The notes: a model not told the origin generated them from the sequence alone. A DNA stretch of 55,548 nt, filler included, from Platydemus manokwari (GCA_037951405.1; 4 parts of 4 records of this genome joined end to end with filler, not necessarily neighbours in it); one strand, 5' to 3'; positions 1,349 to 49,920 are shown, numbered from the whole stretch's first letter. Made by a program: numbers and translations.

Positions 1349-1900
1349 TTATTTAATTAAATATGAAATTTTATAATATACCATATCGGGATAATTTTCT
1401 GAAAATATATTCATGATTTCAAATTTTTCATTAGATAAAGGACCATCAATCATTATAAATTCCCAGAGATTACTCTTTGATGGTGTATCAGCAAATATAT
1501 TACCAATAAATAAATTAATTTTAAATGGTTTATCTAATTCTTTAAGTAATTTATCATTTAAGTAAATAGAAGGCTTTCCATTTTAGATTTTTTATTAAAT
1601 TCATCAATTAATAATCTGGTATTTGTAGTCATTAAATTCCACTTATTTCTCAAATAAGGAAAAGAACATTTATCAACGCAAACATACTCCGTTCTATGAT
1701 TATTATCCTTGAATACAATCCCATCTTTTGTTCCAATACAACCTCTTTTTCCACTAACATATTGAACAAGAAATATATAACTAAATCCATCATATGTAAC
1801 CCTTGTCGTCTTTTAGGAAATTTAGATTCATAATTATAAAACCATCAACACCAATATTATTTTTTGCTATTATAATACTCATGGAAAGTAAACCGCAAGA
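1349..1900 (-). pseudogene. Decayed viral fibre/head-like gene, second copy (homologous to ~18900-19400)
   Basis: Clear nucleotide similarity: 1442-1568 matches 18942-19068 and 1623-1785 matches 19121-19283. Translation: FLVQYVSGKRGCIGTKDGIVFKDNNHRTEYVCVDKCSFPYLRNKW...IYLNDKLLKELDKPFKINLFIGN...SNLWEFIMIDGPL, with frameshifts. Confidence 0.7.
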
Positions 1901-3564
1901 ATTTAGAAAAAGCGTCTAGTTTAGGAATTATCGTAAGATATTTTTCATAATTTTTCGAGGCAATCAGCAAAAAACAGTTTTTTGTTTTTATAACAATTAA
2001 TACTATTTCCCTTCATTTAACATACAAATTTTATGTGTCTCCGCCTCCTCATCCAAAACATAGACATTAGTTGGTTTTCTTAGATCAGAGATAGCTTTCG
2101 TCAATGTTTTGATATTATTGGTATTTTGGAATTACTTCTCTATCTACTCTGTTGTTGGCATACTATCGTAATATGTCTATCTTCATCCTAAATATAACTT
2201 CTGCTGGACTAACATCAATCGTGTTTTCTGCTATACCATTCAATGTATATTCGATTCCTGGTAATATTAAAACCCAGTTTGTGTGTTGCTTATCCATCAC
2301 CTTCGCATCTATATAGTCTCTTATCGTTCTAATCTGTAGCTCAATCAATCCATTTATACTATCGTGATATGGACTGGAAAATAATAAATCTATTCCCATT
2401 CTAAAAGCCATTGCTGTGATTCTCTGTGATTCAAAACATTTACCACAATCTACATATATTTCTTTTGGTGCTAGTTGGGCTAGTTAGCCATTTCAATTTT
2501 TTGGACACCTCACATTTATCTTTTCCAAATCTTTCATGTCGAAATTATTTCTTATATATCGTGTTACTTTCTCAGTTTCTGCATGACACAACAACTTGTG
2601 AATTTATTCAATCATTTATTTTCTTTTAATTGCTGGTATCCAAATTTTGTGCTCTTTTGTTTTCACAATGTCATCCTCGAGTATGTAATGACCATTTCGA
2701 GTTTTTCTATACCTTTTTTAGTCATTGTTATTTCTTCCTTAATTCTTGCCATTCTTTTCCTCTATTTTCTGTCATTATAGTCAATATTCTGGTTTTCATT
2801 TTTCCTTTGCTTGGATTATCATGTTTTGTTAAACATTGTAAACAGGTTTCACATGTGTTTTTTGAGAGCATATCGGCATTTTCGTGATTAATACCCTTTC
2901 TAAATATCATGTTTATGTCCAAGCTACTTAAATGATTCAACCATATCTGAAATTGTGGTGCTGTCGGATTTTTCGTTTTTAACATGAATGTGATTGCTTT
3001 GTGATCCGTTCTAAATGTAAATCTTTTATCATACAGGTAATAGTTGAAATGTTGACAGAAATAATATATCGCCAATAATTCTTTCTTAGTGATGCAATAT
3101 CCTTTCTCATGCTTATTCATTGCAAGAGATCCGTATGCAATTACATGTTCATTTCCTTGTTCATCTTTCTGTGATAGAACTGCTCCTATTGTGTCAAAGC
3201 TTGCATCGGTGTCTAGAATGAATTCTTTCTTAAAGTCAGGAAATTTAAAAACTGGTGATTTTGTAAAAGCCTTTTTCATTTCTTGAAATGTCTTATCACA
3301 TGTTTCGTTCCATATTAATTTACTGTTATTCTTCCCACATTGTTCTTCTAAGGCTCTAGATTTTGTTGAGTAGTCTTGTATAGATAATAACCACGAATTC
3401 CTAATCATGCTCTGGTCTTACAAGGCAATTACAACCAAATTCCTCATTGATGTGGTTGTTTTACATATATCAAAATATCGATTACAGCTTTTAATAAATT
3501 GTTCGATATCGTCACCTCGACTGTACTTTTCAAGCACAACTCTACTCAAGATCGCATCCATGTG

Positions 3565-10739: not shown

Positions 10740-11249
10740 TGTTATATATTACCACACGTTATCTCGCGCAGTACGTAAAAGTAATCAAGCAGAATAAAAT
10801 AAAATTGCAAAGCATTGAATTCAATTTTATATTTATCTTTGCAATAATAAAATATAATATTTATTGTCTTTGGAGTCTACTTTTCAGTTCCAAAAAAGGC
10901 TGGCAGGAATCCATATAACTCAATCTCTTTTATACCTCTATCGAGTGTGTCTGTTTTATGTCACGGATCTTCGTTTCGTATTCTATAAATTTGTTCGTGG
11001 ATAGATTTTCTTGAGTTTTTCCATACATCTCTCGTGCCATTGGCAGATATTTGAGCTTGCTGCCTGTCAATTCTTAGCATCTAACTATGGATTAACATTA
11101 GAACGAATCTGATTAGTTAAAGGCACATGTGTGTTTATCGGATTTGTGTGTATTGATCCTTTTTAGGGTTATTTTTTTGGTTCTTGTGATCCTTTCTGAT
11201 TGATTTGTGACCTACCCAACAAATCAACAGAGCCCCACGACAAAGAATT
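10740..11249 (-). repeat. LTR-like dispersed repeat (possible solo LTR), cut by a gap
   Basis: The minus strand has GGTATAAAAG (10927-10936), then AATAAA (10860-10865), and ends ...ATATAACA at 10740. Positions 10911-11219 are homologous to 49599-49920. Confidence 0.6.
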
Positions 11250-11349
11250 NNNNNNNNNNNNNNNNNNNNNNNNNNNNNNNNNNNNNNNNNNNNTTAATTA
11301 ATTAANNNNNNNNNNNNNNNNNNNNNNNNNNNNNNNNNNNNNNNNNNNN
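11250..11349. other. Artificial scaffold linker N44-TTAATTAATTAA-N44
   Basis: Identical 100-bp structure occurs three times; the 12-mer gives a stop in all six frames. Confidence 0.97.
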
Positions 11350-12875
11350 ATATTTTCTTATGAGTTATGCTTCTTCAAATATGTGCATGAAAATCGGACA
11401 TTTCATATGGGACAACCTAATATTTATATATTGGTAGATATTGGTAATCAATAAACATCATCTACCTATAATTAGGCCCATTATATAACCTACAATTATA
11501 TCGAAAAAATAATATAAAAATAATAAAAGAAAAAAAATTAAAATTTGTCAAATACTTTCTAAATATTTTTTATTATCATTTCTTTGTGATATTTTAAATA
11601 TATATGAAAATAATCTCTTTTTTTAGCATATTATTTGGTGTTGATAGGATATAAATTTCTACTTATTTTTTGTATCTAATGCCGATGAAGTATTCCGAAT
11701 TTATTTATTTATTTCATTATTTTGATATGTAATTCCAGTTTTTTCTGTCTTCTCTTCCTGACATATATATCAAATATCATGTGATTATCTTGTTACTATT
11801 TTTAGAAATTAAATTAAAATATTCAAAATAATAATTGATGCGATTTTATTAATCTCCAAATAGCTTCAATTTGTTTAATTCAATTTTATTACTATGTTTA
11901 TTCTATAAGATAAATTGACAAAATCTAGAATCACGAACAATTGCTTGCTTTTTATAATTCTACAATAATTATTAATAAATTATGGAATCAATCAAAGCCT
12001 CTAAAAATATTTTATCACAATATTGATATCAATGCACTAATAACGCATTGAGGATCTTTCTTAGGATGTGTGCAATAATTTAATGAATTTTAAAATTATA
12101 ATATTTTTATATTATTTTAATTTTTTTCCTATAATCCAATTTTTTATTTGAATTACTTATTAAAATTATATAAATTATTAATATTGGGTTGGTGGGTTAA
12201 TCAGTGTGGTTTTATTTGGTGCAAAGAAAACACACGAAATTCTTTTTTAACTTATCTAAGTTATAATTATTGAGCTAATTTATCTATTTAAATCATTTTA
12301 GACTAACTTTCACTTTCATTACACTCATTAGAACATCTCCTATCTAGCTTTATAATCAGTATCTTACTTTAAAATTAAACTTTATCAGCACTCTATTTGT
12401 CTTTGTCAATATAAGATATATTTTAACTTGCTTAGAATCGATAAATAAAAAAAAAGATCAGGATTTTATATATTCATCTAGATTAAAAACACTAAGTTGT
12501 AAATAACACATGTTATGTACCCTAACATCTACTCTCAATGAAACTAAACATCAGTTATCAATTAATAAAACAAATAGTAGTACCATTATTTAAACAATAA
12601 GTAAAACACTAGAAAACACAAAAATATATCTGAAACTTAAATACAAATAATTATAAAATAAAGAAATTTAATATTAGTACTATCCATTTATTGACAAGTA
12701 TAAAGTAATAACAATTGTAATGGTCATAGAAAATGGCACAAAAAATATGAATGAAGAGAAGATTAATTAAATGATCACATCAAATACAACTTCATCAATG
12801 ACAGCGACTAATGAATATGATAGTGTTGCAACTCAAAACACAATATGAAACATGATTTCTTCGTTGATTTAGATG

Positions 12876-13670
12876 TTAAAAGTAAATTATTGTATTAGAA
12901 TTATATATAGCATGAATTTCAAGACATTTCGCGCTTTTTCCGTCATAAAAAAATTTCGTTCCTTTTGTTTTTGGATTGAACACATAAAGAACCTGAGGAA
13001 TTGTTTTTGTTTTCATATTGTTTGAACAAAAATCAAATTTATCAAAAATTGCTAAAATCCCGGCATCTATAGTGCAATTACCATAAAAGTAATTGATAAA
13101 AAACCGTCTTTGACTTTTTCTGTTACCAGCAATTGAAAAAAAAACAAATTTCCTACGCAACAACCACTTAATATTCCATGGGTAGCTTTTTCGAATATTA
13201 GTTCTATTGAACCAGGATGTCAAGTTATCATTTTTTCTAACTATAAAACTTAACCACGCAACTATTGCATTGCTGTGATCTCTAATCGTTACATTCATTT
13301 CTACTGGTCGTATCATTTTCCATTCATTGAGAAGAATACTTCGAAAATTCTCTGAATAATTTTTTGCTTCGTCAGACGCCTTCAAATAAGCAGCATTTCT
13401 TTGAGTATAAAACTCATACGATGAAACATTGCTCCCAGTGACAATTCGAAATAATGTTACTTCTTTCATTTGTTTTTGATAAACTTTGTTATAAGTTTCG
13501 TTTGATTTTATCGCATTTTGATATTGCGGCTCATAACACGAGTTATTCACAATTGCAAAATAATCTCTGCCTTCATTTACAGATTGGAATGCACATCCCA
13601 AATAATTTGATAAATCACCATTAGCTAAATTGTTATTATGTAAATATATAAAAATATAAAGGATAAACAT
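12876..13670 (-). CDS. Intronless putative secreted glycoprotein, 264 aa, uncharacterised
   Basis: An uninterrupted 264-codon ORF is unlikely by chance at this AT content. It has a hydrophobic N-terminus and many N-x-S/T sequons. The pattern LFR..TG / SWF / FSIAG..RRFFINYFYGNC..DAG is one I recall from uncharacterised invertebrate extracellular proteins. Confidence 0.75.
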   Translation of the reverse strand: MFILYIFIYLHNNNLANGDLSNYLGCAFQSVNEGRDYFAIVNNSCYEPQYQNAIKSNETYNKVYQKQMKEVTLFRIVTGSNVSSYEFYTQRNAAYLKASDEAKNYSENFRSILLNEWKMIRPVEMNVTIRDHSNAIVAWLSFIVRKNDNLTSWFNRTNIRKSYPWNIKWLLRRKFVFFSIAGNRKSQRRFFINYFYGNCTIDAGILAIFDKFDFCSNNMKTKTIPQVLYVFNPKTKGTKFFYDGKSAKCLEIHAIYNSNTIIYF

Positions 13671-16600
13671 TTTAATTGCAAAATGAATGCCACGTAAGAA
13701 AAGATATTTTTATATGAAATATTTGGTAACCATTGGCATCGTCACCTGATTCTATATTTGGTTCATAGAGAATAACATGATGTTTGTATGACTATTTGAC
13801 TTTTCCTGAAAAGCTACAAGTATTATTCTGAAACGAATTTCACTAATAATTATTAAGATGTTTAATTTTCCAATATATTTTGTCTGGTTATTCTAAAATA
13901 TTAAATCGATGAGTCAAATATGTTAGACGATTGAAATTTGATTAAAATTTTTGAGAACAATTTATTTTCTTACATTTTTTAGTCCTCAGATAAAGAAGGA
14001 AAAATCATTTAATATTTTTAGTTATAAACATTTTTACAATTATTATAAATTACTATGGTAAAATATTGAAATGGAATTATACAGTATTTGTAATAATGTG
14101 CTTTCATGTCTTAATAATGTTTGTAGCAGCGTAATAATTTTTGAAATAATTTATTTCAGTATACATTTCAGCAAATGTCCATAAACGAAAAATTAGAATA
14201 AAATCTTTTGTTGCCATGATAACAATAAAAATTTCTATATTGTAGCAAAAGTAAAGCTATATATTGGCCTGTGGTTAGTGTGTGTAACGCAACATCACGT
14301 TTATTTATTAACGATTGTTGATAACAAAATTGTTATATAGTAACTTTCTAACACACCTATTCAACGATATTTTTTTATTTTTAGTTCATTTTCATTTTCA
14401 TCCACATTAATGAGAAAATCTATATTTAATATATTTAGTCAGTAAAAATTCACATGTTCTGGATAAACCTTCTAACAATGCGTCTATTGTTGTTAATTTT
14501 ATGCTTACCATCAATTATTGTATAGAATAGTTAGAAATTTTTTTTCCTGTGGAATTAGAATACCCACAAATAAGGTCTCAATAAAGAACATATTTTTTGT
14601 TTAGAACTAAATAAAATCCAAATATTGTTTATTTTTGTAAATTATTTTAACACTAATTTTATCTTTGAAACAGTTCTTTTATTGAATACAATAATTTATA
14701 TTTTATTGTTACTTCTTATTTGAGATATTTCTTTTTTCATACGAGTGTTTTAAATAGTTAATTATTAATATCTCAGTTACATGGTTTAAATATTATTCTG
14801 TATGATGAATGAAAATCGAATTGAAAAAAAAGCAGAAGAAGCGCTTCGTAAACTGAATAACAATTATTACATTCAATTTGTAACAACTTGTTCATAAATT
14901 CCTTTAGCTGTTTAAAATAAGAAAATGTGAAGTTCGAACCGCGGACTGGTGATTTTGTTACATAAATACTAAAAAAGACATCAGAGATTTTTAAGACAAA
15001 TAAACTATACAAACCTTGTTGCAGTAGTAAATGTAAATTGAAATTAAGAATTAATAGAAAAAGCGAAGACCTATTAGAGAAAGATATGACACTCCAAAAT
15101 AAAGTATGTATAGGATATTGAGCAATTGGGAAAATTGATAATTTAGAAAATCGTCCAAATACTGAACGTGTGTTGCTCAAACTATGCTCAAAAATGCTAG
15201 TGTATTGATTTGGTTTTTCTTATTTCTTTGCAAGTTTATAATGTCAAAAAAAATCTTAAAGTTCTTGATTTTCCATGAGTTTCAAAATGCATAAATATAT
15301 ACTTTCATATATTACCAGTTATTCAATATATTGTTGGAATATGTCTTATTATCTAGAAACTGATATTAGTTTAGATTTTTCAAATATAGATCTCATTGAA
15401 TCGCTAAATGAAGAATTTTACTGGGAATAAAATTACCACATATAATAAATAACTTTTTATTCATATTGTGTAATCGTGATGTCATGTTCCAAATAAATAT
15501 TACAAGTAGAACACAAAACTAGATATTTATAGAGTGTCTATAAAAAATAAACTTAATAAAAATTATTTACATGTGAGAATGAATTGTAAAAGTTTTATTT
15601 ATTATGAAGTTAATTCCTATTTAACTTTCAGGTTCAGTTTAAATATTGTAATCAATTATGAAAGTAACTTTCTTTGATGAATTCATTTTAGAACATCTCA
15701 CATTGACATATCATGTTACTCTTATTCATTGTCGTTTCATCAAAGAATAGAAAATACGCATAATTAAGCGTGATGATTTATTTTAAAATTTTACAGCTCG
15801 ACAATTGTTATAGACATGAATTGACCAATCGATGATGAAATAATGTCAAGTCGAAAATGTGTTCTACTTTACTAATTAATAATAATTTGCCTTTAAACAT
15901 TATATTCTGATGAGTCTGAGTAATTTTTAAAGCACACAGATTGCCAGAGTCCTTAAATCATTATTAATTGTATGTTTCCTGGAAAGTATCGAAGTTATTA
16001 ATTTCGCGATGACAATAAATAACAATGGTAATTTCTAAAAATGAGTAATTACAATTGGATTTTAGCGTTCCATTTTATTGCTGGGAAATATACAAAAACG
16101 TTTAGGTAAAGTCAGAATATTTCTCTATTATCAGTCTCTAGCTATTCTCAAACAACATTTATTTCCTTAAAATTAGTTGGTGAACTATAATGCTATGAAA
16201 GTGAGAATATTTATCGTTTATCAGTGAGTGAATAAAGAGGTCGATTAAAAATTATTAAATTTGTTTTCATTAAATTTAATATTTTATTAATTGGTTGCTA
16301 CTGACAACAATATTAATCAAATATTGATGATGATCTGACTCCAGATAATTCGAATGAAATGTAGGAAATATTGAAATAACTTTAAATGAATTGAAAAACT
16401 TTACATCCTACTTGAAATTCATATAAATGTCATGCTCTGAGTATCATTTTATTGATTTTCTCATTGATAACATTTTTTATGAAGAAAAAACATTGAAAAA
16501 TTTAATACAAAACCTTTTATCGATAATTTAAAATTTAAATATTAGTTTGAATGCTGATTCCTTGGTGTTATGATTTTATGCATATACAAGCTATTGATTT

Positions 16601-17559
16601 TCCTGTAATACCACACATACATTGATTATTTGAAGAATGAAAACCATTTAATAGATTTCAGAATTCTCTCTTACTGTTGCTATGAAAACTGAAACCCAGC
16701 AGATATAGTATTAACGTATCTCTGTCATCGGTATGATGCTGGTCCGAAGCAACATTTATTTAGTCAGGTTTTACATAGAATTGCCATTACTGGAAAATGC
16801 ATATGAATTAATGAACATATCGTTACGATTTTTGCGCTGTATTTATTATTTCTATCTATTTTTAGTTTTATTTTTGTTTTGATTAATAATATTATAAGCA
16901 TTTGAATAAATTGGTGTTTATATTTTAATAAAAGTACATCATCATCTTTAAAATTACATATAAACCAATTTTTGACTTTAAAATTTAATGTACAAAAAGT
17001 TAACCAGTATTCTAATAAGTGTTTGCACTATCTATAATTAATAACCTATTAAAAGTTACATTGAAATTTCCTAAAGTTTTCAAGTTTTAATGTAGATTTA
17101 ACTTTATTTATTTCAGTTACCCTATGTTTTTAATAGATTTTAAAGGCAAAATTGTTAACATTTATCAGAATAATTATTAATAACCCGAATTTTCATCAAT
17201 TATTTGCTTTCCATAAGTATCATCAAGACAATCGATGAATATGTCTTAGCGTTGTGTTATGGAACATATTAATGATGATATAAGTTAAATATAAAATCAT
17301 CACAAATGAAATCAAAAGTACTTCGTGTATTTGAAAGATTTTCACACAAAGAATAATTCTTAATCGATTTTCAATTGTGATAAGCAATATTCATATGCAA
17401 TACCATTTCTTTATGTTCATCCAAATTATGATAAAGTGAAACGAGTACATTAATAATTATTCTGTTTCAGTATTTGTTATCGTTATGAGTTTTATATAAT
17501 TTTAAATAAGGTTGTAAATAAAACTTACGATTTTAACTTCGTTCAAAGTTTGTTATTCT

Positions 17560-17950
17560 TTTTATAGTTGTTTTTATATTTTTGTTCTATTTTTTCAATT
17601 TTTCTGGTTATTATTTTACCTTTTGTTGTAATTTCCTTCATCTATAATTTTCCAATGCCACTTCATATCTTTTTTAATCTTAATTTTTTTATTAAGACTC
17701 TATTTTCCCTTCTGAATTCGCGTTTATTTTGTGTTCTTTTACCATTATTTTATTTTTCTCAATTTCATTATTATTTTCTAATAAATACTTTAAAATGTAA
17801 TCGGTTTATCCTTTTTCTAAACATGATTTTTGTTGAAGTGACCTTGATGGTGTTTTGCATTGTTTCATTTAATATGCATTTCATCTCTGGTAACATTACC
17901 GCCAAGTTTGCATTTTGTCAGTCCTTTCTTGTTGCTTTTATATATTATTA
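17560..17950 (-). mobile_element. Decayed Ty3/gypsy integrase C-terminal fragment
   Basis: Minus-strand NANLAVMLPEMKCILNETMQNTIKVTSTKIMFRKRINR aligns with HTNWVLILPGIEYTLNGIAENTIDVSPAEVIFRMKIDI of the element at 2163-2411. Confidence 0.65.
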
Positions 17951-18169
17951 TAAACTATATATCAGTATATTAATAAATTATATATCGGTATGAGTATATG
18001 ATGTTTATTGATTATCACTCACTACCAATAAATAAATAAATGCTAGGTTGGCTAACACTTAACAATTTCTGGAATTTTAGCAGCTTAGCCAGACTTATGG
18101 TAAATATATCTGCTTGAAAATATTTTTTCTTATATTATTAAAATTATCTAATTACCTTCCATTATAATA

Positions 18170-18360
18170 TTTTCCCAAAGATTATTATTTGTTTTATTGA
18201 TCTATCTTGCAAATCATTTACAAAATAATAAACATCATGTTGCATTGCTATTGGATCTATTCTATTTACAGGTTGATGATTTTCTTTTGGTATGGGTGGT
18301 ATATCTAATTTTCCAGTTTCATTATAATTATTAACAATTTCAACGTAATTTGCTGTGTTC
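18170..18360 (-). pseudogene. Parvovirus/adintovirus-type phospholipase A2 domain remnant
   Basis: Minus-strand translation ETGKLDIPPIPKENHQPVNRIDPIAMQHDVYY contains the PxNxxDxxAxxHDxxY motif (18225-18272). Confidence 0.7.
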
Positions 18361-18859
18361 TTGTGTATTTTTTTGACAAATTCTATTATCTTTCAATTAA
18401 AGTATGGACGATATTTTAAGCAATTATTAGAAATGATTAAACTCTTCAGAATCATCGACCTTTAGTCTCTGAACAGTTTCAGTATAATTATCAAAACAAA
18501 ATTAGGGAACTTGTTTTGAATTGTTCATTCATTTCTCATAGTTTTAACTAGAAACCATTCATTAGATAATTGTGTGGTTTTTAAAATAGTAGCGGCTAAC
18601 AATCTTTATTAAATTTAATTTTATTTATAGTTTTGTTTTTTATATATTTTTTTACGAATAAATCATAAATCTCAAATACGTCTTCAATTATTACAATTTT
18701 TATATTTATTGTTAAAAAAATTAAAAACTCATTTTCTAGAGGGCTGCGCAATAATTCAGAATATATTGCAAAAATTAAGAAATTCTAATATCAAATTTTG
18801 ATAAAAATAAATCCCATATAAAATATAAGAATATAAGTGTTGTTTGCCAAAATATCTCT

Positions 18860-20168
18860 ATTCTCGAGATTGAAACCAGAACACTTTTTAAAGAAAAAAT
18901 ATATTATTTCTCGATTTTATTTTTGTCTTTATCTGTTAAAAACCATCAATCACTATAAATTCCAAGAGATTACTCTTTGATGGTCTATTAGGAAAAAAAT
19001 TACCAATAAATAAATTTATTTCATATGGTTTATCTAATTCTTTAAGTAATTTACCATTAAGTAAATACAATACTTTCTGTTATCATAATTTATTTTATTA
19101 AATTCATAATAATCTGGGTTTTGTAGTCATTAAACCCCATTGCTATCTCAAATAAGGAAAAGAACAATTATCAATACATACATACTCTGTTCCATGATTA
19201 TTATCCAAGAATACAATTTTGTCTCTTGTTCCAATACAACTTCCTTTTCCTTCAACATATTGAACAAGAAATATAAAATTAAATCTCCCATTTATTATTC
19301 CAAAAAGCGTAATAGGAAATTTACATTCATAAGTACAAACATTATAAACTCCAATGTTATTCTTTTTACTATTATGAAATTCCTTAAAACTATACCATGA
19401 AATTAAAGGTTTTTCCTCAGTCAATGAAATATATTTTCCCAAATTTCTTGGCAACTTGAGGTTAAAATTAGTCTTCATTTCAAAGATTCTATAGGAATTT
19501 TATAATTTAAATCCATTTCTTTATTTTCATATTTTTCTCTTCATTCGATTTTTTTAGATCATTAATAGATTCTTTTAATTTTTTATTATCTTTAGTATTT
19601 TTAAGGAGATAATTCCATTTTTTTCTAATTTCCCTCAGTCAGAACAAGTAATTTTTTCATCATTATCTCTATAAATTCTGCTTCTGTTTTTTCCTTTTAA
19701 GAATTTCAAACTTTTAAACTTTTCCGAGATTAATTTTATTTCTTTCTCATTTATTTTTTTATTATCATTTACCAATGTAATTAACGATTTACATAAAGAG
19801 TCAAGTTTATCAATACTTTGTTTTCTTTCATTAAATCAGATCTAGCATTTGACATATAAGTAGAAATCTTCAAGATTTTATTAGTTTCACCGATTTCTTT
19901 TTCGGAATTCTTTCTAATTTTATCAATTTCAAACCTTAATTCACCCCTAATTTTTTCAAAATATTTTTTTATTAACAGCTTCTGTTTCATTTTCAGGATC
20001 ACTCAAGTTTGTTATTCTATCATTGTTTAACTCTAAATTACCCTTCATACTATCATCCTCCTTATTAATATATTTTTTATCATAGGTTCTTTCTCTAGCA
20101 TTAACCATTTCTTGAATATCTCTTATATTGTTAACTGAACTATTATCAAACTTGTGAGTCATAGACAT
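18860..20168 (-). pseudogene. Fibre/spike-like protein: anchor motif, coiled coil and ConA/LamG-like head (fragmented)
   Basis: ORF fragments 19956-20168 (KYINKEDDSMKGNLELNNDRITNLSDPENETEAVNKK), 19781-20002 (heptad-rich) and 19143-19478, continuing as YLLNGKL..LFIGN..LLEFIVIDG. Treating these as one ancestral gene is an inference. Confidence 0.55.
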
Positions 20169-20573
20169 TTTTTAGTTTAAAATTTTTATTATTGATAATG
20201 TCATCAAATTTTAATCCTTTATTTAAACAATCCAAAACATACATTGATAATTGTCCACATAATTATCCTTCAGATTGTATATGCATTTTATTATAGGTTA
20301 ATTTGTCTTTATCAAAAAAATTATAAACCACTTTAGTTGGTAAAATCCCACTACGATCAAAATAAGTATTATGAAGTTTACTGATTAAAACCCAGTGTGA
20401 GCCCTTACGTTTTGTAGTTTCTAAATTCATAATGATATATACCTTGTAGTATTTATTAACTCATCTCCCATTAGAAGTTTTACATCTAAATTTAAATCAT
20501 CAGCAATATCCTTTAAATTAAAATTAGTTGTTTTATTAATTCCATATTTAGCTAGAAAATTTATCAAGTCCAT
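20148..20573 (-). pseudogene. Adenain-like (adenoviral-type) cysteine maturation protease
   Basis: Translation: MDLINFLAKYG.../YIIMNLETTKRKGSHWVLI...TYFDRSGILP...HIQSEG*LCGQLSMYVL. This matches the adenain pattern IxN..GxHW..YFDSxG..Q...CG (His-Trp at 20392-20397, Cys-Gly at 20254-20259). There is one frameshift at ~20440 and one stop at 20263-20265. Confidence 0.85.
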
Positions 20574-20596
20574 TTTTTAACATTAAATAATAAGGT

Positions 20597-20696
20597 NNNN
20601 NNNNNNNNNNNNNNNNNNNNNNNNNNNNNNNNNNNNNNNNTTAATTAATTAANNNNNNNNNNNNNNNNNNNNNNNNNNNNNNNNNNNNNNNNNNNN
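20597..20696. other. Artificial scaffold linker N44-TTAATTAATTAA-N44
   Basis: Same structure as 11250-11349. Confidence 0.97.
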
Positions 20697-23600
20697 AAGT
20701 TCATTTTAAAGCGAGTTATAGTATTTTAAAGTATACGTTTACAAACGGCCATTATTTTCCCAACAACCTAATACAATAAGGGTGAGACAAAGTTACGTTT
20801 TTGTTAACGTCCATTACCATTTAAAGATTTCAGAAAAAATTTACTCCACCTAAATTCCATATTATAAAGTTATCTTTAACAATGTTTCGAAAATGTTTTA
20901 TTAACAAAACAAGCTTTGAGATTAATTAATCATTAAATTCTATTTAATGAAAATATTCTAAATTTGTTACAGTTGTGTCAGCTATTTCTTGATCAAAGAA
21001 TAATCAAAGGTAGAAGATACAGGCTAAATGGTAAATTTAGTTTCAATGCCCATTACATTCTCAATGAAATTTTCTTTAATGATCAAAAGCGTTGTTTAGA
21101 AATATCCAGGTATAGTTATAGTTTTACAGATTTTACATGATAAGATACAATAATATCAAATAAACTATCATTTATCGTTAATTTACTTAAATCTTTTAAT
21201 TGTATTGATCAGAGTGAAGATCATTTCATAAATTCAACTGAGCATTCTTTAGATTGGTTTTTAAAATTTTTTAGGTCTTGTTTGAATCCTCACACTTATA
21301 AATAAAAGTGAATTCTTGTTCAAAAGCGATTAAACATTAAAAGGTATTTTCATGAAATCATAGGATTTCGTTGAGGTACCTATCATTTTTAATTGGAAAA
21401 TATATTATTTCGTGTCACTGTGTTTGTCTATCTTGTCTTGCTTTGCATCCTCTAATTATTTGTTTAAGTATTATAACTAAATTAATCATCGATATTACAA
21501 ACCGAAAATTAAATTTAATCAAAAATATCTGGTTGAGACTTTTTACATAACGGGTCTTTATATAAGTTTAATTTTTAGAATGCGAAATATAGAAACGTAT
21601 ATACCAAAATACCAGCCCAAATTTCTTGTTGGTGTTTAAGGAATATAATCAAAAAGCATACACAACTACTGTTAATTCTCATCATTTCTGGGATTTCGAT
21701 ATAGGCAATTAATATTTAAATGTTTTGTGTTCACATTCACCTAGTCTCTAGACGTCACGAGAGTCATTAGATCATCGGCATGTAATAATGTTCTGTCTAC
21801 CAGCTCTTGGTTCAGTTTGGAGGACAATCAACTAATTAAATAATTAACTAAGGTACCAATTTTGTAAATGCAAAGTTGTTTTTGATAAAAATCAATACTG
21901 AATAATATGTGTATTGAAATTTTGTGTAAGGAATTCTAAATAGGACTCACCTAGCTTCTATCTCACATAGTTGAAGGTCAGAGCTATTTGTTTTTATTAT
22001 TTCATATCAATCCATGGAATAAATCTAATCTATGACTGTAAGAAAAATTGCGTTTAAAATTCTAATGGAGAATCAATGTGTAATTTATTTATTTTTCATT
22101 GAATTCTTAAATTTTATAATTTTGCTATGAACAGTTAGCCTCCATTAAGAATAATGAATAGATTTCGATCAATAATATTTATGAATCTTCAATAATTAAG
22201 CGCTCTACGAAACGAATGTAAATAGTTGAATTTATACTAAAAGTGAATTTTATACAATTCTTTAGGATTTAATTAATAAAGAAATTAACAAAATAAACAC
22301 AAATAAATAAATAAAATTAAAAGATCAATGAATTTGCCTTATTAAATAAAAACCAGTGACATTACGTAGTAACATTAAGAAAACGGTGAAAAGTAAAGAT
22401 CCGTAGAGAGTATTGACACCCTACACTAAAAACTAGCGTTACGCCAATAGTCACGTATATACTTAAAACTCATAATTTCCGCATGTCTTGCTTTCCTAAT
22501 TACCTTATTTTTTATTTTATAATTTCTTGACATTACTTCAATAATATTCAAGTTTACAACAATCGAGTAATTATTTTATTATATTTAGTATCAGAAACAT
22601 TTATTGTATATATTAATATTTTTTAAATAACGTATCTTTTATGTCTGAAGTTTTTTTAAAATTCTTATTTCATAGAAAGGATTTATTGAGTGAAAAACCT
22701 ATATTTGATATACAACAAAAGGTAAAGCAGATAATTGTTTGAAAATTAAAGATATTTTGAATTCCAGTTGTTGTGGATAATGTCTCGTAGATATAAGATT
22801 ATTATCAATCCTATAGAGAAAAAAGTATTTCATGTAAAAGTAATAAAGCTTTTCTTGTTAACGATAATATTTAGAAGAAACGGTACGTTTCTCCTCAACT
22901 ATTACGTTATACATCTGTTCAATCTCATTGATTTATTAAAATTGGACGATATCTCTTTTAATATTTAGTTTTGGTTATGGTTTGTTATTATTTTTTGTTT
23001 GAATTGTGATATTATTTTGTGCTCTTATTAAATGATGTTGCAATGTTTGTCAATATTTGTAAATAGATTGTTATGAAATAAAAAGAAAGTTTAAAAGAAA
23101 TTATTATTTTTTATTTGTAATATAATGCTCTTACTTTAAAATATCTTAGACTATTATTTTATAAATGAAAATATATTAACATAGTTATTTAGTTACATCG
23201 GGTGGTTATTAAACTCATGTGTGGAAACTAATTGGAAAATTATACAAGTTAGGAATATCGCTGAAAAATTTAGTGGTACGAAAATCTAAATTAATTAAAG
23301 GAAAAAAAATAATATTTGAAGGATTTGAGGAACAAATAGAATATGATATTTGAAATCAATAATAACATATGTCCCAGGGATACTGGTGGTTGTAGGTGAT
23401 ATGAGCACTGATGAAAATTAGAATTATGGATTTCGGAAACCGATAAGTAAAATGTGTCTGCCATTTATTATCTTATTCTATCTGTAACAATTACTAGTAT
23501 AGCTAAAACAAAAATCGGTGATTTTCAGAGCTTATCCAATGAAATAACGATACTTTAAAAATCTAATCACTGAAAGAATATTTTTAATTATGCATTTTTA

Positions 23601-25839
23601 TTACTATAATCTATTTTTAAAGTATAAAAAATGTTTTCATACTTTTCTAAAGAACAGTAAAAATCTCATTTCATAAGGGAAAGGAAACAAACCGAATTTA
23701 AAGTAATGGAAATGAGGATTTAATTATCTTTCGGAGAATTTGTTTTTTGTAAAAAAATAAATGGCTATATAAATTATATACGATGACCAAGAATAAAATA
23801 TGATAAATAAAAATAAATATAATTTATTTATGTATTCCAAAATAGGGAATAAATAAATAGTAGCTAATAACAAAAATTCAGACAAATTTAATCATCAGTA
23901 AATAAATGGAAAAATATGATAAAAAATTTGAAAAATTAAACTCAGAGATAAGTCAATTGAATTTTATAAGTCTTCTAAAAATAAAAATGATTTTGATTAT
24001 ATCACACAGAAATGCAAAAGCAATAGAAATTATCGATTGGAATTGTTGACTGAAGTTCGATATAAATACAGGGTCTACTGGCAGCAAAAATAGTTAAAAA
24101 ATTTCGGACAATAAGAACGCTAACAATTTTGACTATTAATACACTTGAACAGTCTCTGAGCAGTTGGAGCACTGATTTGGACTGCACTTGATTCGGCTAA
24201 CAAAAATTGACCTGAAAAATTGTGGTGAAAGTAACTATATTATCGACGCTTAAGAATTTTAGCAGCTTTAACACGATTGTTTAAAAATCCAAACTTCGAA
24301 TATCTTAACACTGGACAATAATTGATTTCCAAACTTAAGAAAATATTAGCAGCTGACCCCTGATCAATAATCGGTAAAAATTATTGATTATTTATAATCT
24401 GGAGGTTTTCCATTCATAAAGGCAAAACATATAGTCTGCGTAAATTTGGTCTTCCTGTTTCTTGATAAAGCAATACACTATACCAGTGTGACATAAAAAT
24501 ACTGGATTAACGTTAGAGTGCTTGTGTGATAAATTGAAAACAATTAGCTGTGGCGGTGATTTGTGTTAAATTTTTTACATAATTAACACTCTTTACTCGG
24601 AAAGTAATCACTCAAATCATTGAATTAACCAAGTATCTTTTAGTGGAATTGTGATAGCAATTCAATATCTCTGTTAATTTCAACACCGTATTGACATTTA
24701 ATTCACCAAAAATCGAAAAACATAGAATTACAAAAGAAACAGATACTATGATAATAACCACAAATGGAACTAAATCACTGTCAAAGTGCCAACTGATGTT
24801 GTTAAGATTTTGTATTTCTATAGAAATCCATCACATTAATAAAATATTTTTTCTTCTAAATGGAAATAAATTAAATTTATTAAGATATTGTATAAGCCAT
24901 TCAATTTTGAAAAAAAAATGTTGATTTCAGATTTTTGTGATCATATATACTTTCTTTCTATTAGTTTATTATAAAATGAATTAATACTTTATGATAAACC
25001 CATGATTCGTAGAAATAAATTGTTTTAAAATATTCTAAAATCCAAAACCTTTAATACCTCGAGATAAAGAAAAACTTCGAATTCAAGATATCCTTTAAAA
25101 TTGGTTTCATTAGTTATATTTGTTGAATATCGTGAAGTAGTAGTCTACAATTTTATTTTTGTGATTCAAGCTGGGCAGAGGAAATATTGTCCTTTTATAT
25201 TTTAATCAATAGAAAAATGAGAATGGGTTATATGTTTTTATTTTCTTTGAATATACTCAACTTTTGTCTTGGCAGGTATTACTTTGCATTTGTTTTTATT
25301 AAAAGAACCTACATTTGCTTTACCATTTTAAATTTGAATTTAATTTTATTGGTTTTTTGATATAATTTTAATTTAACGATTTTTCGTATATTATTTAATT
25401 TCAAAATGTACTTATAACGATATTTTTATCATAATCTGACTCAAAAATCAATTGTAAATGAAAATAAATAAAACCAGCGAAATTCTATCTGAAAAAACAA
25501 TTGCCATATAATGTTTATTTAATGTTTTGAGCACAAATGTCTCGATTATCTGGAAGGCCACCAGCATTTCAAGTGTTAAATTTTCTGATGAATAAATTTT
25601 TAAATTATCAACACGATGGAGAAATTGGACCTTAAAATTTAAAAACAAATTAACAATTTAAGTCGTGGCAATATATTTGTCTTCAAACTTTATCGTGACA
25701 GTAGAAAAACAGAAACAGCGGTACTTTTAATTTTAAGAATTATTTTTGAAAATTCCTTTTGAATTTTTAGATGATATTAGCTGGGGAATTCGATCCAGTC
25801 ACATTTGAATTCATATCATTGAATCAAATTGATGATATT

Positions 25840-28060
25840 CATCATTTGGAATCCATTTTTGTTTTTTCGCAATAATAAAAGTTTTTTCCAATTTATTCAT
25901 CAGAGCTTCCATGTCGATGAATAGTCCTTCCGCTGTATTAAAGCACTTCTAGGTAACGCTACCGCTCTTCTAGATTAATTGTAGGAACTTTCTCCTTGTA
26001 GATCATGAGTTCCCCCGCGTTAGTACTTGATTTTAGAATGCAAGTACCCGCATTTTATAGTTTGAATTTGAATCCAAGTTGAAACCCGAGAATCAATTTT
26101 CAGTTATTCATCATTTGGAATCCATTTTTGCTTTTTCGCAATAATCGCTATGTCATCTGATTAGCGAAGCATGAAATTTGATGATTTGCAATTATCAGGC
26201 CTCCAATAAGACAGTTATTCATTTGTACCAATATTAGATTAATAAGCATGGAGATTAGGCCGCCTTTCCTGACTCCCCTTTGAATTTTGATTGGTTTCGT
26301 TTGATTTAAATCACACCACATAGTATGATTCTGATCGTTGTTTCAGTCGGACTTCTATGTTTTAGGATTGTAAATATCTTCTTTGATGTCTAAGAATCCG
26401 ATGTGATATAGATATTTTTCTTACTGTATTCTTATATTATAGCTCGAAGTAAAAAGTTTTGTTTGGCACACCTTTCATTTGGACCTGGGCTTTTCTGGAG
26501 TTGATGTATTAGGTTGGTTTCATCAATCAGATTCTTCAGTTGTTTGCACAGAATAGATATGTGAATTTTAGAGCTAAAGTTGAGCAGCGCAATAGGAAGC
26601 CAGGAGCTGACTTGATGATAGTGGCCCTCTTTCATGGTTTTTGGTATCATCAATGTTGTATATATTTTCCATTCCTCTGGTATTTATTGTTTATCTAAGC
26701 ATTTTGTAAAAATCTTGTGTATGATTTTGGTATCTGGGTCTGCACACATAATATATTCATAATTGATCTTGTTTTTTCCAGAAGCACTTGGGTTCTTTTT
26801 ACAGAGAGTTGGATAAATTGCTTCTGGTTCTACTTTCCCGAAATAACGTTTAGTAACTTTATTTAATGAACAATGATTTTTACTTGCTCTCGTACGCTAT
26901 CCTTCACTTTCAGGAAGATATGTTTTTTGCTTCTGCTTGATCTCGAAATGTTTTATGAAGTCTATTTTAGTGCGTAAACAGTCAGCTTTTGGGTATTGCA
27001 TAGCCAACTCAAAGACAGCAGACGGAGCGAGGTTGAACAGTCTCCTCAGTTTTAAGTCAATTTCACCTCTTTTTTCATCATTGGCTCTACCTAAGTATGG
27101 GTTACTTGCTGATTTAATTGTGCTGACTCAGAAAATGAATTTGCAGTATTGGCTAAACATTTCATCTAATATTTCATTTGTATAGTTGTTAACCAGTCCT
27201 TCTGTTAATGATTTCTTAATTTCAAATAAATCATTTGGATATTTATAAGGAATGTACATTAGCTGTTCCTCACTTTTGACCTTCCATTCTTGTTTGAGAA
27301 TCGCCTTATTTGTATTTTTTGTAATTGCTTCGATGTTTATTCCTGTCAGTTGAAAGTTGTGATTGATGTATATCCAAATACCAGGGACTCGCTTTCTCCA
27401 AAATTGCATTGTAGTAGTCTGGTCTTAACAAGCTCGATTTTTCCAGACCTTCTTTGATTATAATAATATGGAAATATTTCTATTTGGACTATTGAAGAAA
27501 TTTGTTTATCATCATCCATATCATCACCTCTAGGGTCCAGGAAATTAAATTGAGTTTTTTGCAAATATTATCGCTAGAATTCAGAGTTAAGATTTCATCA
27601 AGTAGGTAAAAGATAATTTCTATAAGTTTGAATTACTGGAACAACAGAAATTCCAGAATATCTTCTGCCTGATCAAGTTAGAGGGATATGGCAATGAAAG
27701 GATCGAGTACTAGAAATTCTTTTTAACACTAGGTCATCATGTATCTTTCTGTAAAAGGGATATGGTCTGGAGCGGCTGGTCTCATCTCCGTTGATTGATG
27801 TTTATGAAATGTTTTGTTTACATTTTCTTCTTATGGTTTTAACGCATACGCCTATGTACGACTGGTTATTGGCTATGCAATGAATGTAACCGCATATTAA
27901 TTGGTAGTAGTCAAAGTTATTCGTTTGTAATTGCTGTTTCTTATCGAATAAGTTACATTTTTATCTTTTAGTTTTTCCAAAGTACGTTTTGTGTTTGAGT
28001 ATCTTGCATATCCTCTTCGCGTGAAGGATTGTCACATAAAAAGAAGGCTTCCTAAAAACC
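25840..28060 (-). mobile_element. Decayed non-LTR retrotransposon, R2/NeSL-like reverse transcriptase
   Basis: IPK...SSWLPIALLN..SKIH..IL..QL...LQK..GPNERCAKQNFLL (26432-26653), IQRGVRKGGLISMLINL (~26240-26290, for GVRQGDPLSP), and a disrupted FADD at ~26150-26170. Boundaries are approximate. Confidence 0.8.
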
Positions 28061-42969: not shown

Positions 42970-43069
42970 NNNNNNNNNNNNNNNNNNNNNNNNNNNNNNN
43001 NNNNNNNNNNNNNTTAATTAATTAANNNNNNNNNNNNNNNNNNNNNNNNNNNNNNNNNNNNNNNNNNNN
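42970..43069. other. Artificial scaffold linker N44-TTAATTAATTAA-N44
   Basis: Same structure as 11250-11349. Confidence 0.97.
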
Positions 43070-45260
43070 TAGAGATGACTCACCAATGTATAGGGCAGAC
43101 ATTAAAACCAGTCTTTGCTACTATGTCATCTTAGCCGCTACTAGCAATTCAATCAAGATTCACAGATACCCCAACGCCACCTCTGGCAACCCTGGATCTC
43201 CAGGGAGTAAACATTATTTTTACTGGTTTTTTCTTGATGAAATTCTTTGACATTTTTTGTATGCTCGAAATGTCTTGATTTCTCCAAGTCTTATCTTGAA
43301 GGTCTTCCAAAGCAGATTCATTTCAATGAGTGTGGTCTTTCTGTTATATATCTTATTTTGATTCCCCTAATCGTAAACTCCTTATTTCATAAATCAAATA
43401 AGTTCACAATATCAAAACAATATTATAGGGAGAAGGAAGCTAGAGTCACCCCCAAAAGTCGGATATTTTCTTATCAAATGTGAGGTCGGCGCAACAACTT
43501 AGAAAGGAGTATGAGTTTTCCTCTAAAGCTAATTTTGCTTAAAATTCTGCTCTCATCAGACCCATTTTCAAACCCGAGTTCACTTATGATCATCCCCAGT
43601 CATTGGATGAATCTTTCGATGTCTACTTTCCATTCCACTTTGCCAAGTCTACAAATTTACCAATTTCTAATGAAGAAAATGGGACTGTCTTTACTTTCGT
43701 TTCCAACCCGGAATTTCTATCGTATGACCTCTTGTATAGCAATTACAATGATATTGATACAAATCGTTCTTTCCTGTTTGAAATCTTTAATTGTAATATT
43801 TCGTCCTTTGAGATTCCAACACTGTGCAAATCTTTCAAAACAAAATTGATTTTAAAATACAAGAAAGATAGTAAATCTCATATTGTCTCTTCTTGGCGAT
43901 CAATTTCTCTTATGGACACGGTATAACATGTCTTTGCTTCAGTGATTAATAATCAATTATTAAGTTAAATATAACAAGGGAGTTTACTTTTTGCATTTTT
44001 AGAAGGCTCTTCTCTTGGATGATGGTTGCTTTGAACACAGTGCATAATTCCACTCAATTCTGGAGAGTTTCCTCTTAATCATGTTGTATAGCATATTTGC
44101 TGGCTTGACTTACATGAAGAATTTCCAAGCGTTCCTAATAATCTCATCTTGCATGCTCTGCATAAAATGGATTGGAATGTAAATACTATATCTATTATAT
44201 CAAACTTGTGTAATTATATCAAATTATTCAACTACTTATCATTGCCTATCGACAAACACAAACCTAGTACAGTTGATAAAAGTGATGAAATAAGGCTGTC
44301 CTCTCTCGATGACTTGTTTTGTTTGCAATTGATTTTATTATTCGTGAATTTAGCATTTATCAGATTATCCTTAAAATTAATGCCATCCAACTTAATATTT
44401 TACTATATGAAGATGACCTTGTAGTTGTGGCCAAGTCATTCACTCTCATCTTTCATTTCTTCTTCGGAACTGAGAATTGTATACCTTGAGTATGCCTTCA
44501 CCTCCAATTCGAAGAAAGTAGGGCTTTTCGGAATTGTTTCTGCTCTTCATGAGTATCATGTACAGAGTATTGTCGACTTCCACGTTTTCAATAGCATTGA
44601 TAAGGTATTCAGTCATTTCATAAACAAGGAACTATTATACATGTGCTTTTTACCCCTCTACATTCTTCCATTGAGGTGATCTCTGACAGGCATTGGACTG
44701 ACTGAGTAAATTGAACAGTTAACTGTAAATTTTATTTAAATGAATTAGATCTGTGTCCAAAATTTGATAGGTATAATGATGTAACTTACCTTTTTAATGA
44801 TAAAATGAAAATCGATGTATGTAAGATTCTGCATGATTGTGCGAAGCTTGTTCATGCAAAATGATGAACCACCATGAAGTGGCAAGATCGTTTCTTTCCC
44901 TCCTTTTTTCAGTCTTCCCGATAAAATATGGTGATGAAAGGTTTGCTTGTTTCTGATAATGTCTGTGGTGCTAAAATTAAAATACCTAGCTTTTCGAAAA
45001 GTAAAGTGACTGGATCTTAATTACAGTCGCTGTAATACACAAGTGGAAACAGTTGCACATGTTCACAACCATTCACCACAGGTCTTCACACATCAACGCG
45101 CAAACATAATATATTATTGAATTTCTGCATAACATGAGGTTTGGTATTGACATTAGTCCTGTCGAGGTAGACACAGGACTCTGGTCAGACTTGATTTGTT
45201 TCATTTGCCTTTTCTATAGGTACAGAGTTTCTATTGAATGTCTAAGTTCTTTTCTTCGCT
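43070..45260 (+). mobile_element. Decayed non-LTR retrotransposon with restriction-like endonuclease (R2/NeSL/Utopia-like)
   Basis: KK...VSSWRSISLMDTV, GCFEH, LDL..FPSVP, YEDDLVVVA (44405), a zinc-knuckle remnant SRCNTQVETVAHVHNH (~45025-45072), RKHNNI, and TGLWSDLI (PD motif remnant, ~45172-45196). Confidence 0.8.
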
Positions 45261-48155: not shown

Positions 48156-48227
48156 TTGTAAAATATAAATAAATATGAGAGTTCATTTATTATTGAATTA
48201 TCATTGTGTGATTATTGATTGATGAGT

Positions 48228-48434
48228 TGGGATATAATATCTGTGACATTGCTAGTAATTATTGATTGGAATACAATATCTGTGATATTGCTAGTAATTA
48301 TTGATTGGAATACAGTATCTGTGACATTGCTAGTAATTATTGTTGATTATTATTGATTGGAATACAATATCTGTGACATTGTTGATTATTATTGATTGGA
48401 ATACAATATCTGTGACATTGTTGATTATTATTGA
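48228..48434. repeat. 39-bp minisatellite, about 5 copies
   Basis: Unit ATATCTGTGACATTG(CTAGTA/TTGATT)ATTATTGATTGGAATACA. Confidence 0.95.
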
Positions 48435-49598: not shown

Positions 49599-49920
49599 CA
49601 TGAAACTCAACCTCTTGTATAGTCCCATCGGGTGTGTCTGCTTGATATCGACAATCTTCGTTTTCCATTTGCTGAATTTGTTAGTAGATTGATCTACTCG
49701 AGATTTTGCTTAGATCTCACGGGCCATTGGTGGATAATTGAGCTTGCTAACATTTGTAAGTATGTGCCTGTCGATTCTTATCTTCTAAATATGGATTAAG
49801 ATCAGAACCAATATGATTGGCTAACAGCACGTGTGTTCATCGGGTCTGTATGTATTGACCATTTTTAGGGTTCTTTCCTGGGTTCTTATGAGCCTTTTAA
49901 TTGATTTGTGATATACCCAA
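49599..49920 (-). repeat. Second partial copy of the LTR-like repeat
   Basis: Colinear similarity to 10911-11219, e.g. ttgagcttgct, tgtattga..tttttagggtt, ttgatttgtga..tacccaa. Confidence 0.75.

What the first reader, a model, noticed from the sequence alone, without database searches (positions are those of the whole stretch)
18100..20596. Hidden endogenous adintovirus/Polinton-like virion module (adenain, fibre-like gene, PLA2)
Seen: three co-oriented intronless pseudogenes, of which the protease and the PLA2 motif are absent from the ORF track. The protease end overlaps the next gene's ATG at 20168, which is virus-like packing. Known: adenain proteases and parvovirus-like PLA2 domains co-occur in adintoviruses and animal Mavericks/Polintons. 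Inferred: this is a fossil of a virion-forming dsDNA element in this host lineage, with capsid, ATPase, pPolB and integrase genes in the gap or in other copies.
Basis: partly seen in the sequence, partly recalled or inferred. Interest (0 to 1): 0.8.

Follow-up and report, generated by a model that had tools for sequence, protein, structure and literature searches.

The report
Decayed Maverick/Polinton virion gene fragment
This is a broken remnant of a Maverick/Polinton (adintovirus-type) DNA virus in an invertebrate genome, keeping traces of its particle-maturing protease, an attachment fibre and probably a membrane-breaching phospholipase; such fossils are common in animals.

Summary
On the minus strand lie a near-complete pseudogene for a clan-CE viral maturation protease (20573-20146; one frameshift, one stop; His, Asp, Gln and Cys kept), an overlapping broken gene that starts with a phage tail-fibre motif (ATG 20168), and a PLA2-like catalytic motif (18392-18162). 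The protease has 140 relatives at E<=1e-3. Their profile matches ASFV S273R and adenain (E about 1e-9) far better than SENP1 (E 0.007). One relative is fused to an rve-like integrase fragment, and two run into the same fibre motif. PLA2 is the weakest call: an Atlas lead plus a motif, no Pfam hit and no calcium loop. A second, 78%-identical piece of the fibre gene lies at 1402-1894 and shows no sign of selection. No capsid, ATPase, pPolB, Polinton integrase or TIR was detected in the window; the contig ends 24 bp upstream of the protease start, so linkage is untested. Protease, Fiber and PLA2X are already on published Alpha adintovirus maps, and most Mavericks are degraded. Verdict: new member of a known kind. 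The only fresh angle is that the protease sits in a subclade whose database members carry no informative name.

The parts
20146..20573 (-). Pseudogene of a Polinton-type capsid maturation cysteine protease (clan CE, adenain-like), about 142 codons; frameshift near 20457-20460, stop at 20265; His 20397, Asp 20358, Gln 20277 and Cys 20259 retained
19956..20168 (-). Open 5' end of gene 2 with a phage tail-fibre-type motif (20072-19968); ATG inside the protease frame
   Evidence: PHROG phrog_2710 E 1.4e-5; same motif at the C-terminus of protease relatives P0067 and P0087
19500..19955 (-). Middle of gene 2: short K/E/N/I/L-rich open stretches in changing frames, read as a broken coiled-coil stalk (inferred, untested)
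   Evidence: frames; strong strand skew; only weak PHROG hits of unknown function, E>=0.07
18896..19499 (-). 3' part of gene 2: about 190 codons, beta-rich by appearance, putative fibre head; family unknown; 3' end approximate
   Evidence: 118-aa ORF; second copy in the window; no match in Pfam, PHROGs, PDB, Atlas or homolog search; model unusable
18393..18895 (.). Unassigned interval; may hold the 5' part of the PLA2 gene or another decayed small gene
   Evidence: no relevant Pfam hit in the three minus frames
18162..18392 (-). 76-codon open stretch with a parvovirus/Polinton-type PLA2 catalytic (His-Asp) motif starting at 18266; calcium loop not found; pX-like tail not seen
   Evidence: Atlas PF08398, score 0.91; motif count; weak AAV capsid hits E about 2 in PDB, not significant
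20597..20696 (.). Artificial contig linker (44 N, a 12-bp all-frame-stop palindrome, 44 N) that cuts the element 24 bp upstream of the protease start
   Evidence: identical linkers at 11250 and 42970
1402..1930 (-). Second, separately decayed copy of the 3' part of gene 2, on another contig of the scaffold
   Evidence: 78% over 508 columns for 1402-1894; identity falls to near shuffle background beyond about 1930
17771..17936 (-). Gypsy-type integrase remnant just downstream of the module; not part of it, marks the left limit
   Evidence: tblastx to the integrase at 2170-2307, 37% over 46 aa, E 1.6e-4; no hit from the integrase part of P0075

Best explanation
The stretch is the dead remnant of the virion-gene arm of a Maverick/Polinton (adintovirus, class Polintoviricetes) that integrated into the germ line of an AT-rich invertebrate. 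SHOWN: a short stand-alone clan-CE protease of the viral type, overlapped by a gene with a tail-fibre motif, followed on the same strand by a PLA2-like motif; all intronless and broken; part of it present twice. INFERRED from the known families: in the live element the protease cleaved virion precursor proteins during maturation; gene 2 made a fibre (anchoring motif, coiled-coil stalk, beta-rich head) for cell attachment; the PLA2 breached the endosomal membrane on entry, as in parvovirus VP1; and pPolB, rve integrase, packaging ATPase and jelly-roll capsid genes lay in the part lost at the contig end or by deletion. Today the locus encodes nothing functional and decays neutrally among Gypsy and LINE debris.
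For: 140 relatives at E<=1e-3. Both halves of the protease are matched across the frameshift. Family profile: ASFV S273R 1.9e-9, adenain 5.7e-9, SENP1 0.007. The model of relative P0002 (pLDDT 92.4) has the clan-CE fold: adenovirus protease Z 10.8 (rmsd 3.2, 129 aligned), SENP/Ulp1 Z 7.3-7.7; a Terrapene adintovirus adenain is third in BFVD (E 2e-5). In a tree of 84 of the 235 relatives, the window sequence nests in a clade of 40 proteins of 98-205 aa (support 1.0), apart from 16 longer proteins, most labelled C48/C57. P0075 joins an rve-like fragment (E 0.002) to the protease; P0067 and P0087 join protease and the fibre motif in the window's order. Alpha adintovirus maps carry Adenain, Fiber and PLA2X labels (PMC8502044 Fig. 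S2 text). [quoted passage not shown] Intact moth Maverick proteases also miss the adenovirus endoprotease profile (E 6.1 and 0.58; PMC5803895). Flanking host genes are intron-split and include a nanchung-type TRPV.
Against: No pPolB, ATPase, capsid or Polinton integrase was detected: Pfam scans covered six frames of 15000-27000 and 152 open stretches (50 of >=48 aa, 102 of 52-79 aa) across the window; these scans also missed the protease, so they are insensitive. No TIR or TSD was identified. None of the 105 proteins has an informative name, and no contig context was obtained, so the relatives are not proven Polinton genes. By fold, the bacterial deubiquitinase SseL (Z 11.5) ties with adenain, and two giant-virus proteases rank first in BFVD. 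The PLA2 lacks a calcium loop and has no HMM hit. The two fibre copies show no codon-position bias (33/37/36 mismatches over 152 codons; pN/pS 0.89, 0.61-1.47), so they give no independent support for the reading frame of the 3' part.
Confidence: 0.82

Rival explanations
1. Protease and fibre gene are a Polinton remnant, but the PLA2 motif is not part of the same element: a chance look-alike or a separate parvovirus/densovirus-type insertion.
For: No Pfam, PDB or phage hit of significance; no calcium loop; Atlas recognition below its 2300 mark; 500 unassigned bases in between; the second copy stops at the end of the fibre gene.
Against: The motif occurs once in 55 kb, on the same strand and within 2 kb of the protease, and in 0 of 150 simulations (post hoc pattern); 29 of 30 Atlas hits fall in the PF08398 set; no Rep/NS1 or parvoviral capsid trace in six frames of 15000-20596; protease plus PLA2 co-occur in known Mavericks.
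Confidence: 0.09
2. The fragment comes from a non-Maverick relative that also has protease and phospholipase, such as a Gossevirus/VC35-type protist virus or a giant virus, either integrated by accident or joined in by assembly.
For: Gosseviruses and VC35 carry the cysteine protease, and about half carry a phospholipase; the relatives come from unnamed ENA/JGI/Logan contigs; ASFV and mimivirid proteases score well; the piece lies at a contig end.
Against: Heavy pseudogenisation and a second decayed copy on another contig that carries intron-split animal genes point to old germ-line insertions rather than contamination; the protease is short and groups apart from the long C48/C57-labelled proteins.
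Confidence: 0.07
3. A retroposed cellular Ulp1/SENP pseudogene next to unrelated debris.
For: 14 of 97 relatives hit Peptidase_C48 at E<=0.01; the fold is shared with SENP/Ulp1.
Against: Profile E-value 0.007 for SENP1 against 5.7e-9 for adenain; the gene has its own start and about 142 codons, like its stand-alone relatives; relatives are fused to integrase or fibre pieces.
Confidence: 0.02

Closest known systems
Alpha adintoviruses (Mayetiola-class virion module) / group 2 Maverick-Polintons, class Polintoviricetes (PMC8502044; 10.64898/2026.06.19.733378)
   Same: Adenain-like protease, a Fiber gene and a parvovirus-type PLA2 in one tightly packed, intronless, co-oriented block; endogenous and degraded in an animal germ line.
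   Different: No PolB, integrase, FtsK/A32 ATPase, penton, hexon or ITR seen; no pX tail seen on the PLA2; protease directly followed by the fibre gene (gene order on the published maps could not be read reliably from the extracted figure text); no close relative carries an adintovirus name.
Spodoptera frugiperda Mavericks 1 and 2 (PMC5803895)
   Same: Protease that barely scores against the adenovirus endoprotease profile, plus a PLA2-bearing small ORF.
   Different: Those elements carry ATPase, integrase and PolB ORFs and their PLA2 keeps catalytic and cofactor residues; here everything is broken and the calcium loop is missing.
Vertebrate Mavericks (PMC8097293)
   Same: Mostly degraded fossils with stops and frameshifts; adenovirus-like protease.
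   Different: The terms PLA2, phospholipase and fiber do not occur in that paper's main text; there the protease sits in a module with integrase and capsid genes.
Adenain (Pfam Peptidase_C5), ASFV pS273R and other clan-CE viral proteases
   Same: His-Asp-Cys triad with oxyanion Gln in the same order; same fold; best PDB matches of the family profile.
   Different: Shorter (about 142 against 204-281 aa); the window sequence itself does not reach the Pfam model.

Membership tests
Maverick/Polinton (Polintoviricetes) | Adenovirus-like (C5-type) maturation protease | tested here: met
Maverick/Polinton (Polintoviricetes) | [quoted passage not shown] | tested here: inconclusive
   No Pfam hit; scans are insensitive to decayed genes and the contig ends at 20596
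Maverick/Polinton (Polintoviricetes) | Retrovirus-like (rve) integrase of Polinton type | tested here: inconclusive
   Only Gypsy-type integrase remnants in the window; 1 of 26 relatives scanned carries an rve-like fragment
Maverick/Polinton (Polintoviricetes) | A32/FtsK packaging ATPase | tested here: inconclusive
   No Pfam hit; element truncated
Maverick/Polinton (Polintoviricetes) | [quoted passage not shown] | tested here: inconclusive
   No Pfam hit; no Polinton capsid query was available
Maverick/Polinton (Polintoviricetes) | [quoted passage not shown] | tested here: inconclusive
   No inverted repeat brackets the module; one end lies beyond the linker
Maverick/Polinton (Polintoviricetes) | Dispersed copies in the host genome | tested here: met
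   One further partial copy within the window; the rest of the genome was not available
Alpha adintovirus virion module | Parvovirus-type PLA2 domain | tested here: inconclusive
   Atlas PF08398 0.91 and catalytic motif present; no HMM hit, no calcium loop
Alpha adintovirus virion module | pX-like C-terminal domain on the PLA2 (PLA2X) | not tested
   Nothing evident by eye after 18225; no profile available
Alpha adintovirus virion module | Fiber gene (similarity to phage tail fibres or coiled coils) | tested here: met
   phrog_2710 E 1.4e-5 for the 5' end; label on Fig. S2A
Alpha adintovirus | OTU-PolB of the Alpha class; hexon and penton clustering with Mayetiola | not testable with these tools
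   These genes are not in the window
Cellular Ulp1/SENP proteases (C48) | Closer similarity to C48 enzymes than to viral maturation proteases | tested here: not met
   Profile E 0.007 against 1.9e-9 and 5.7e-9; Z 7.3-7.7 against 10.8
Giant-virus (NCLDV) I7/S273R/Ulp1-like proteases | Longer protein grouping with C57/C48-labelled viral enzymes | tested here: not met
   About 142 codons; separate clade from the 16 long proteins (midpoint root, unnamed sequences, labels)

The most novel reading that the evidence does not exclude
The fossil is an animal-host anchor for an undescribed Polinton sublineage, defined by a distinct short protease clade (support 1.0; members seen here only as unnamed proteins, mostly on short contigs), a conserved protease-to-fibre junction, and a fibre head of about 190 residues that matches no family searched and could be a new receptor-binding domain.
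Probability: 0.3. Interest if true: 0.45.

Novelty: new member of a known kind. Interest (0 to 1): 0.3.

Why it matters
As it stands it is one more decayed Maverick/Polinton, of value for annotation: ORF- and Pfam-based pipelines miss it completely. Particles have not been observed for Maverick-Polintons (10.64898/2026.06.19.733378), so entry genes (fibre, PLA2) in another invertebrate lineage add a little support for a virus life style, but a dead fragment cannot test it. It would matter more if the protease subclade proves to be an undescribed lineage with less decayed copies in this host, since that would tie many unnamed metagenomic proteases to an animal host and point to a new fibre-head domain.

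Tried and rejected
Pfam on six frames of 15000-27000 and on single pieces: no relevant hit. Single-sequence PDB search with the protease: only spurious tubulin-tyrosine ligase hits. Word-based homolog searches with the protease part and the fibre 3' part: nothing, although HMMER later found 140 protease relatives, so one search is no evidence of absence. Loci of relatives: two alignments were too variable for the locus tool; two single proteins found nothing in prokaryotic genomes and one found nothing in phages. The cluster look-up for names could not be made. No Atlas result exists for the protease. My idea, by eye, that the fibre head is a LamG/concanavalin-like lectin domain found no support: no Pfam, PHROG, PDB or Atlas match and a single-sequence model at pLDDT 32 that was not searched further. 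The idea that the two fibre copies diverged as functional genes was not supported. The integrase remnant at 17771-17936 as the element's own integrase: rejected, it resembles the Gypsy integrase next to RNase H at 2163-3417. The 45-bp inverted match 11421-11465/17994-18038 as a TIR pair: rejected, it does not bracket the module. My recalled regular expression for the fibre motif did not match the window; that call rests on PHROGs instead. Flatworm names were absent from the held part of the PMC8502044 supplement, but that file is cut and its Table S1 and File S2 were not seen.

Full report
SETTING. The window is about 27% G+C with three identical 100-bp linkers (44 N, a 12-bp palindrome, 44 N) at 11250, 20597 and 42970, so it is four contigs joined artificially. 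It carries intron-split host genes: ankyrin exons with a best PDB match to Nanchung (E 7.5e-11), cyclin, SacI-domain, Ost-alpha and SPB4-type DEAD-box genes, plus a Gypsy RNase H/integrase remnant at 2163-3417. The host is therefore an invertebrate animal (inference from the Nanchung match). Its lineage was not established; a planarian is only my guess from base composition.

PROTEASE. Minus-strand frames show an open stretch from ATG 20573 to beyond 20457 and, in another frame, 20460-20146 with one stop at 20265. Pfam, a PDB search and a word-based search missed it. HMMER over 1.84 billion representatives found 140 proteins at E<=1e-3, 6 at <=1e-10, best 1.6e-18. Back-searched against the window, 138 of 140 hit the 3' part, and 19 of 140 also hit the 5' part that was not in the query; with 95 further proteins the count is 67 of 235. 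The two pieces are thus one gene of about 142 codons with a frameshift near 20457-20460. His, Asp, Gln and Cys are present at 20397, 20358, 20277 and 20259 (residue roles recalled from clan-CE proteases). No second protease copy is in the window.

FAMILY OF THE PROTEASE. I aligned 97 of the 140 hits, leaving out most fragments, the long proteins and some others. Of these, 28 hit Peptidase_C5 and 14 hit Peptidase_C48 at E<=0.01. Their profile finds ASFV S273R (1.9e-9) and adenovirus proteases (5.7e-9 to 6.8e-8), then a gap to Chlamydia DUBs (0.004) and SENP1 (0.007). A model of relative P0002 (about 50% identical to the window gene; pLDDT 92.4) matches SseL (Z 11.5, rmsd 3.4, 134 aligned) and adenovirus protease (Z 10.8, rmsd 3.2, 129 aligned), a tie, ahead of Ulp1/SENP (Z 7.3-7.7). 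In BFVD the first hits are two giant-virus proteases and the Terrapene adintovirus adenain (E 2e-6 to 2e-5), with Sputnik V9, adomavirus LO8 and a MELD virus protease further down. The fold says clan CE; sequence says viral. In a FastTree of 84 of the 235 relatives (23 long, 31 closest, 5 C5-labelled, 25 random; 131 columns; midpoint root) the window sequence lies on a long branch inside a clade of 40 proteins (support 1.0), separate from a clade of 16 long proteins, most with C48/C57 labels. The close members were chosen for similarity, so the clade is partly circular, and no named reference is in the tree. None of the 105 proteins listed has an informative name. Among 26 relatives scanned, P0075 joins an rve-like fragment (E 0.002, below the curated cut-off) to the protease, which is Polinton-like.

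GENE 2. Its ATG at 20168 lies 23 nt inside the protease frame; decay could have moved the protease stop, but the length fits the relatives. The open 5' end hits phage tail-fibre families (phrog_2710, E 1.4e-5; 6 of 10 listed families are tail or collar fibres) and weakly cyanophage proteins (E 2e-3). Relatives P0067 and P0087 carry the same motif at their C-termini, matching 20072-19968, so protease-then-fibre is a real arrangement in this group. The middle consists of short open stretches in changing frames that look like coiled coil (by eye). The 3' part (19499 to about 18900) matches nothing and did not fold (pLDDT 32). That these parts form one gene is inferred from position, strand skew (GC skew -0.18 to -0.42 over 19000-20500) and the shared copy, not shown.

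SECOND COPY. 1402-1894 matches 18896-19396 at 78% over 508 columns, fading to near shuffle background (0.52-0.56) beyond about 1930. Mismatches fall 33/37/36 on codon positions over 152 codons, pN/pS 0.89 (bootstrap 0.61-1.47), no lower than in other frames (0.74-1.06); in the best-aligned 91 codons they fall 16/13/11. This fits neutral decay of two copies from similar parents. It does not confirm the reading frame, and it cannot tell two insertions from a host duplication.

PLA2. ORF 18392-18162 holds the only match in the window to a recalled PLA2 catalytic pattern, against 0 of 150 simulated windows (pattern written after seeing the sequence). The Atlas ranks PF08398 clusters first (0.91; 188 of 256 features; PF08398 on 38% of the top cluster's members; recognition 1909, which it calls weak). 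Pfam, PDB and phages give nothing significant, and the only calcium-loop pattern in the window is at 11485, unrelated. Probable, not proven.

WHAT IS MISSING. No pPolB, ATPase, capsid or Polinton integrase in six frames of 15000-27000 or in 152 further open stretches; the same scans miss the protease, so absence is weak. No TIR pair brackets the module. The contig ends 24 bp upstream of the protease ATG. Context for relatives was not obtainable (viral and metagenome contig collections closed).

MECHANISM. Shown: a viral-type protease gene overlapped by a fibre-motif gene and followed by a PLA2-like motif, intronless, co-oriented, broken and partly duplicated in an animal genome. Inferred from the families: virion maturation, attachment and membrane breach for an integrating dsDNA element whose replication and capsid genes are not in view. 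Present function: none expected.

LITERATURE. PMC8502044 (passages, first part of Results, extracted text of Fig. S2; the supplement is cut, Table S1 and File S2 unseen) describes adenain, PLA2X as typical of Alpha virion modules, and degraded germ-line copies; Fig. S2A carries Fiber, PLA2X and Adenain labels. 10.64898/2026.06.19.733378 (passages) treats Mavericks, Polintons and adintoviruses as synonyms, finds phospholipase common in group 2, and notes Gosseviruses and VC35 with protease and phospholipase. PMC8097293 (passages): most vertebrate Mavericks are degraded. PMC5803895, PMC11296320 and PMC3671162 (passages): protease and PLA2 in insect Mavericks and related elements. 10.64898/2025.12.11.693146 (passages) reports a Maverick expansion in Dugesia, relevant only if the host is a planarian. 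PMC6431247 (passages) gave general background. Five searches (listings only for the other papers) showed no paper on this protease subclade, which is weak evidence given the library's limits and the unseen supplements.

VERDICT. Observation confirmed, interpretation largely right but its linkage claim untested. A new, decayed member of a known kind; interest 0.3. Most novel reading not excluded: an animal-host anchor for an undescribed Polinton sublineage with an unknown fibre-head domain (probability 0.3, interest 0.45).

Noticed in passing
window 1402-2483: The second fibre fragment directly adjoins a Gypsy integrase cut just after its core, same strand and without an LTR between; the main copy also lies about 230 bp from a different Gypsy integrase fragment (17771-17936). 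Probably deletion junctions in transposon debris.
   Followed up: partly
window 11250-11349, 20597-20696, 42970-43069: Three identical artificial linkers; order and distance across them are not evidence of contiguity.
   Followed up: yes
window 12876-13709 (-): Intact-looking 277-codon intronless ORF with a hydrophobic N-terminus and several cysteines; no Pfam hit; probably a secreted host protein.
   Followed up: no
window 10892-11219 and 49579-49920: A dispersed repeat of about 340 bp, 74% identical, unidentified.
   Followed up: no
window 11421-11465 and 17994-18038: 45-bp inverted match (87%) enclosing 6.6 kb that includes the 277-codon ORF; does not bracket the viral module.
   Followed up: partly
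window 25700-27400 (-) and 43071-44700 (+): Decayed stretches that look like LINE reverse transcriptase/endonuclease by eye; no Pfam hit.
   Followed up: no
window 48200-48434: Tandem array with a 39-bp unit.
   Followed up: no
proteins P0056, P0065, P0105, P0136: Protease relatives of 358-377 aa with a shared-looking C-terminal region of about 220 residues that has no Pfam match; an unnamed fusion worth a look.
   Followed up: no
protein P0075: rve-like fragment, zinc finger and protease in one ORF.
   Followed up: partly
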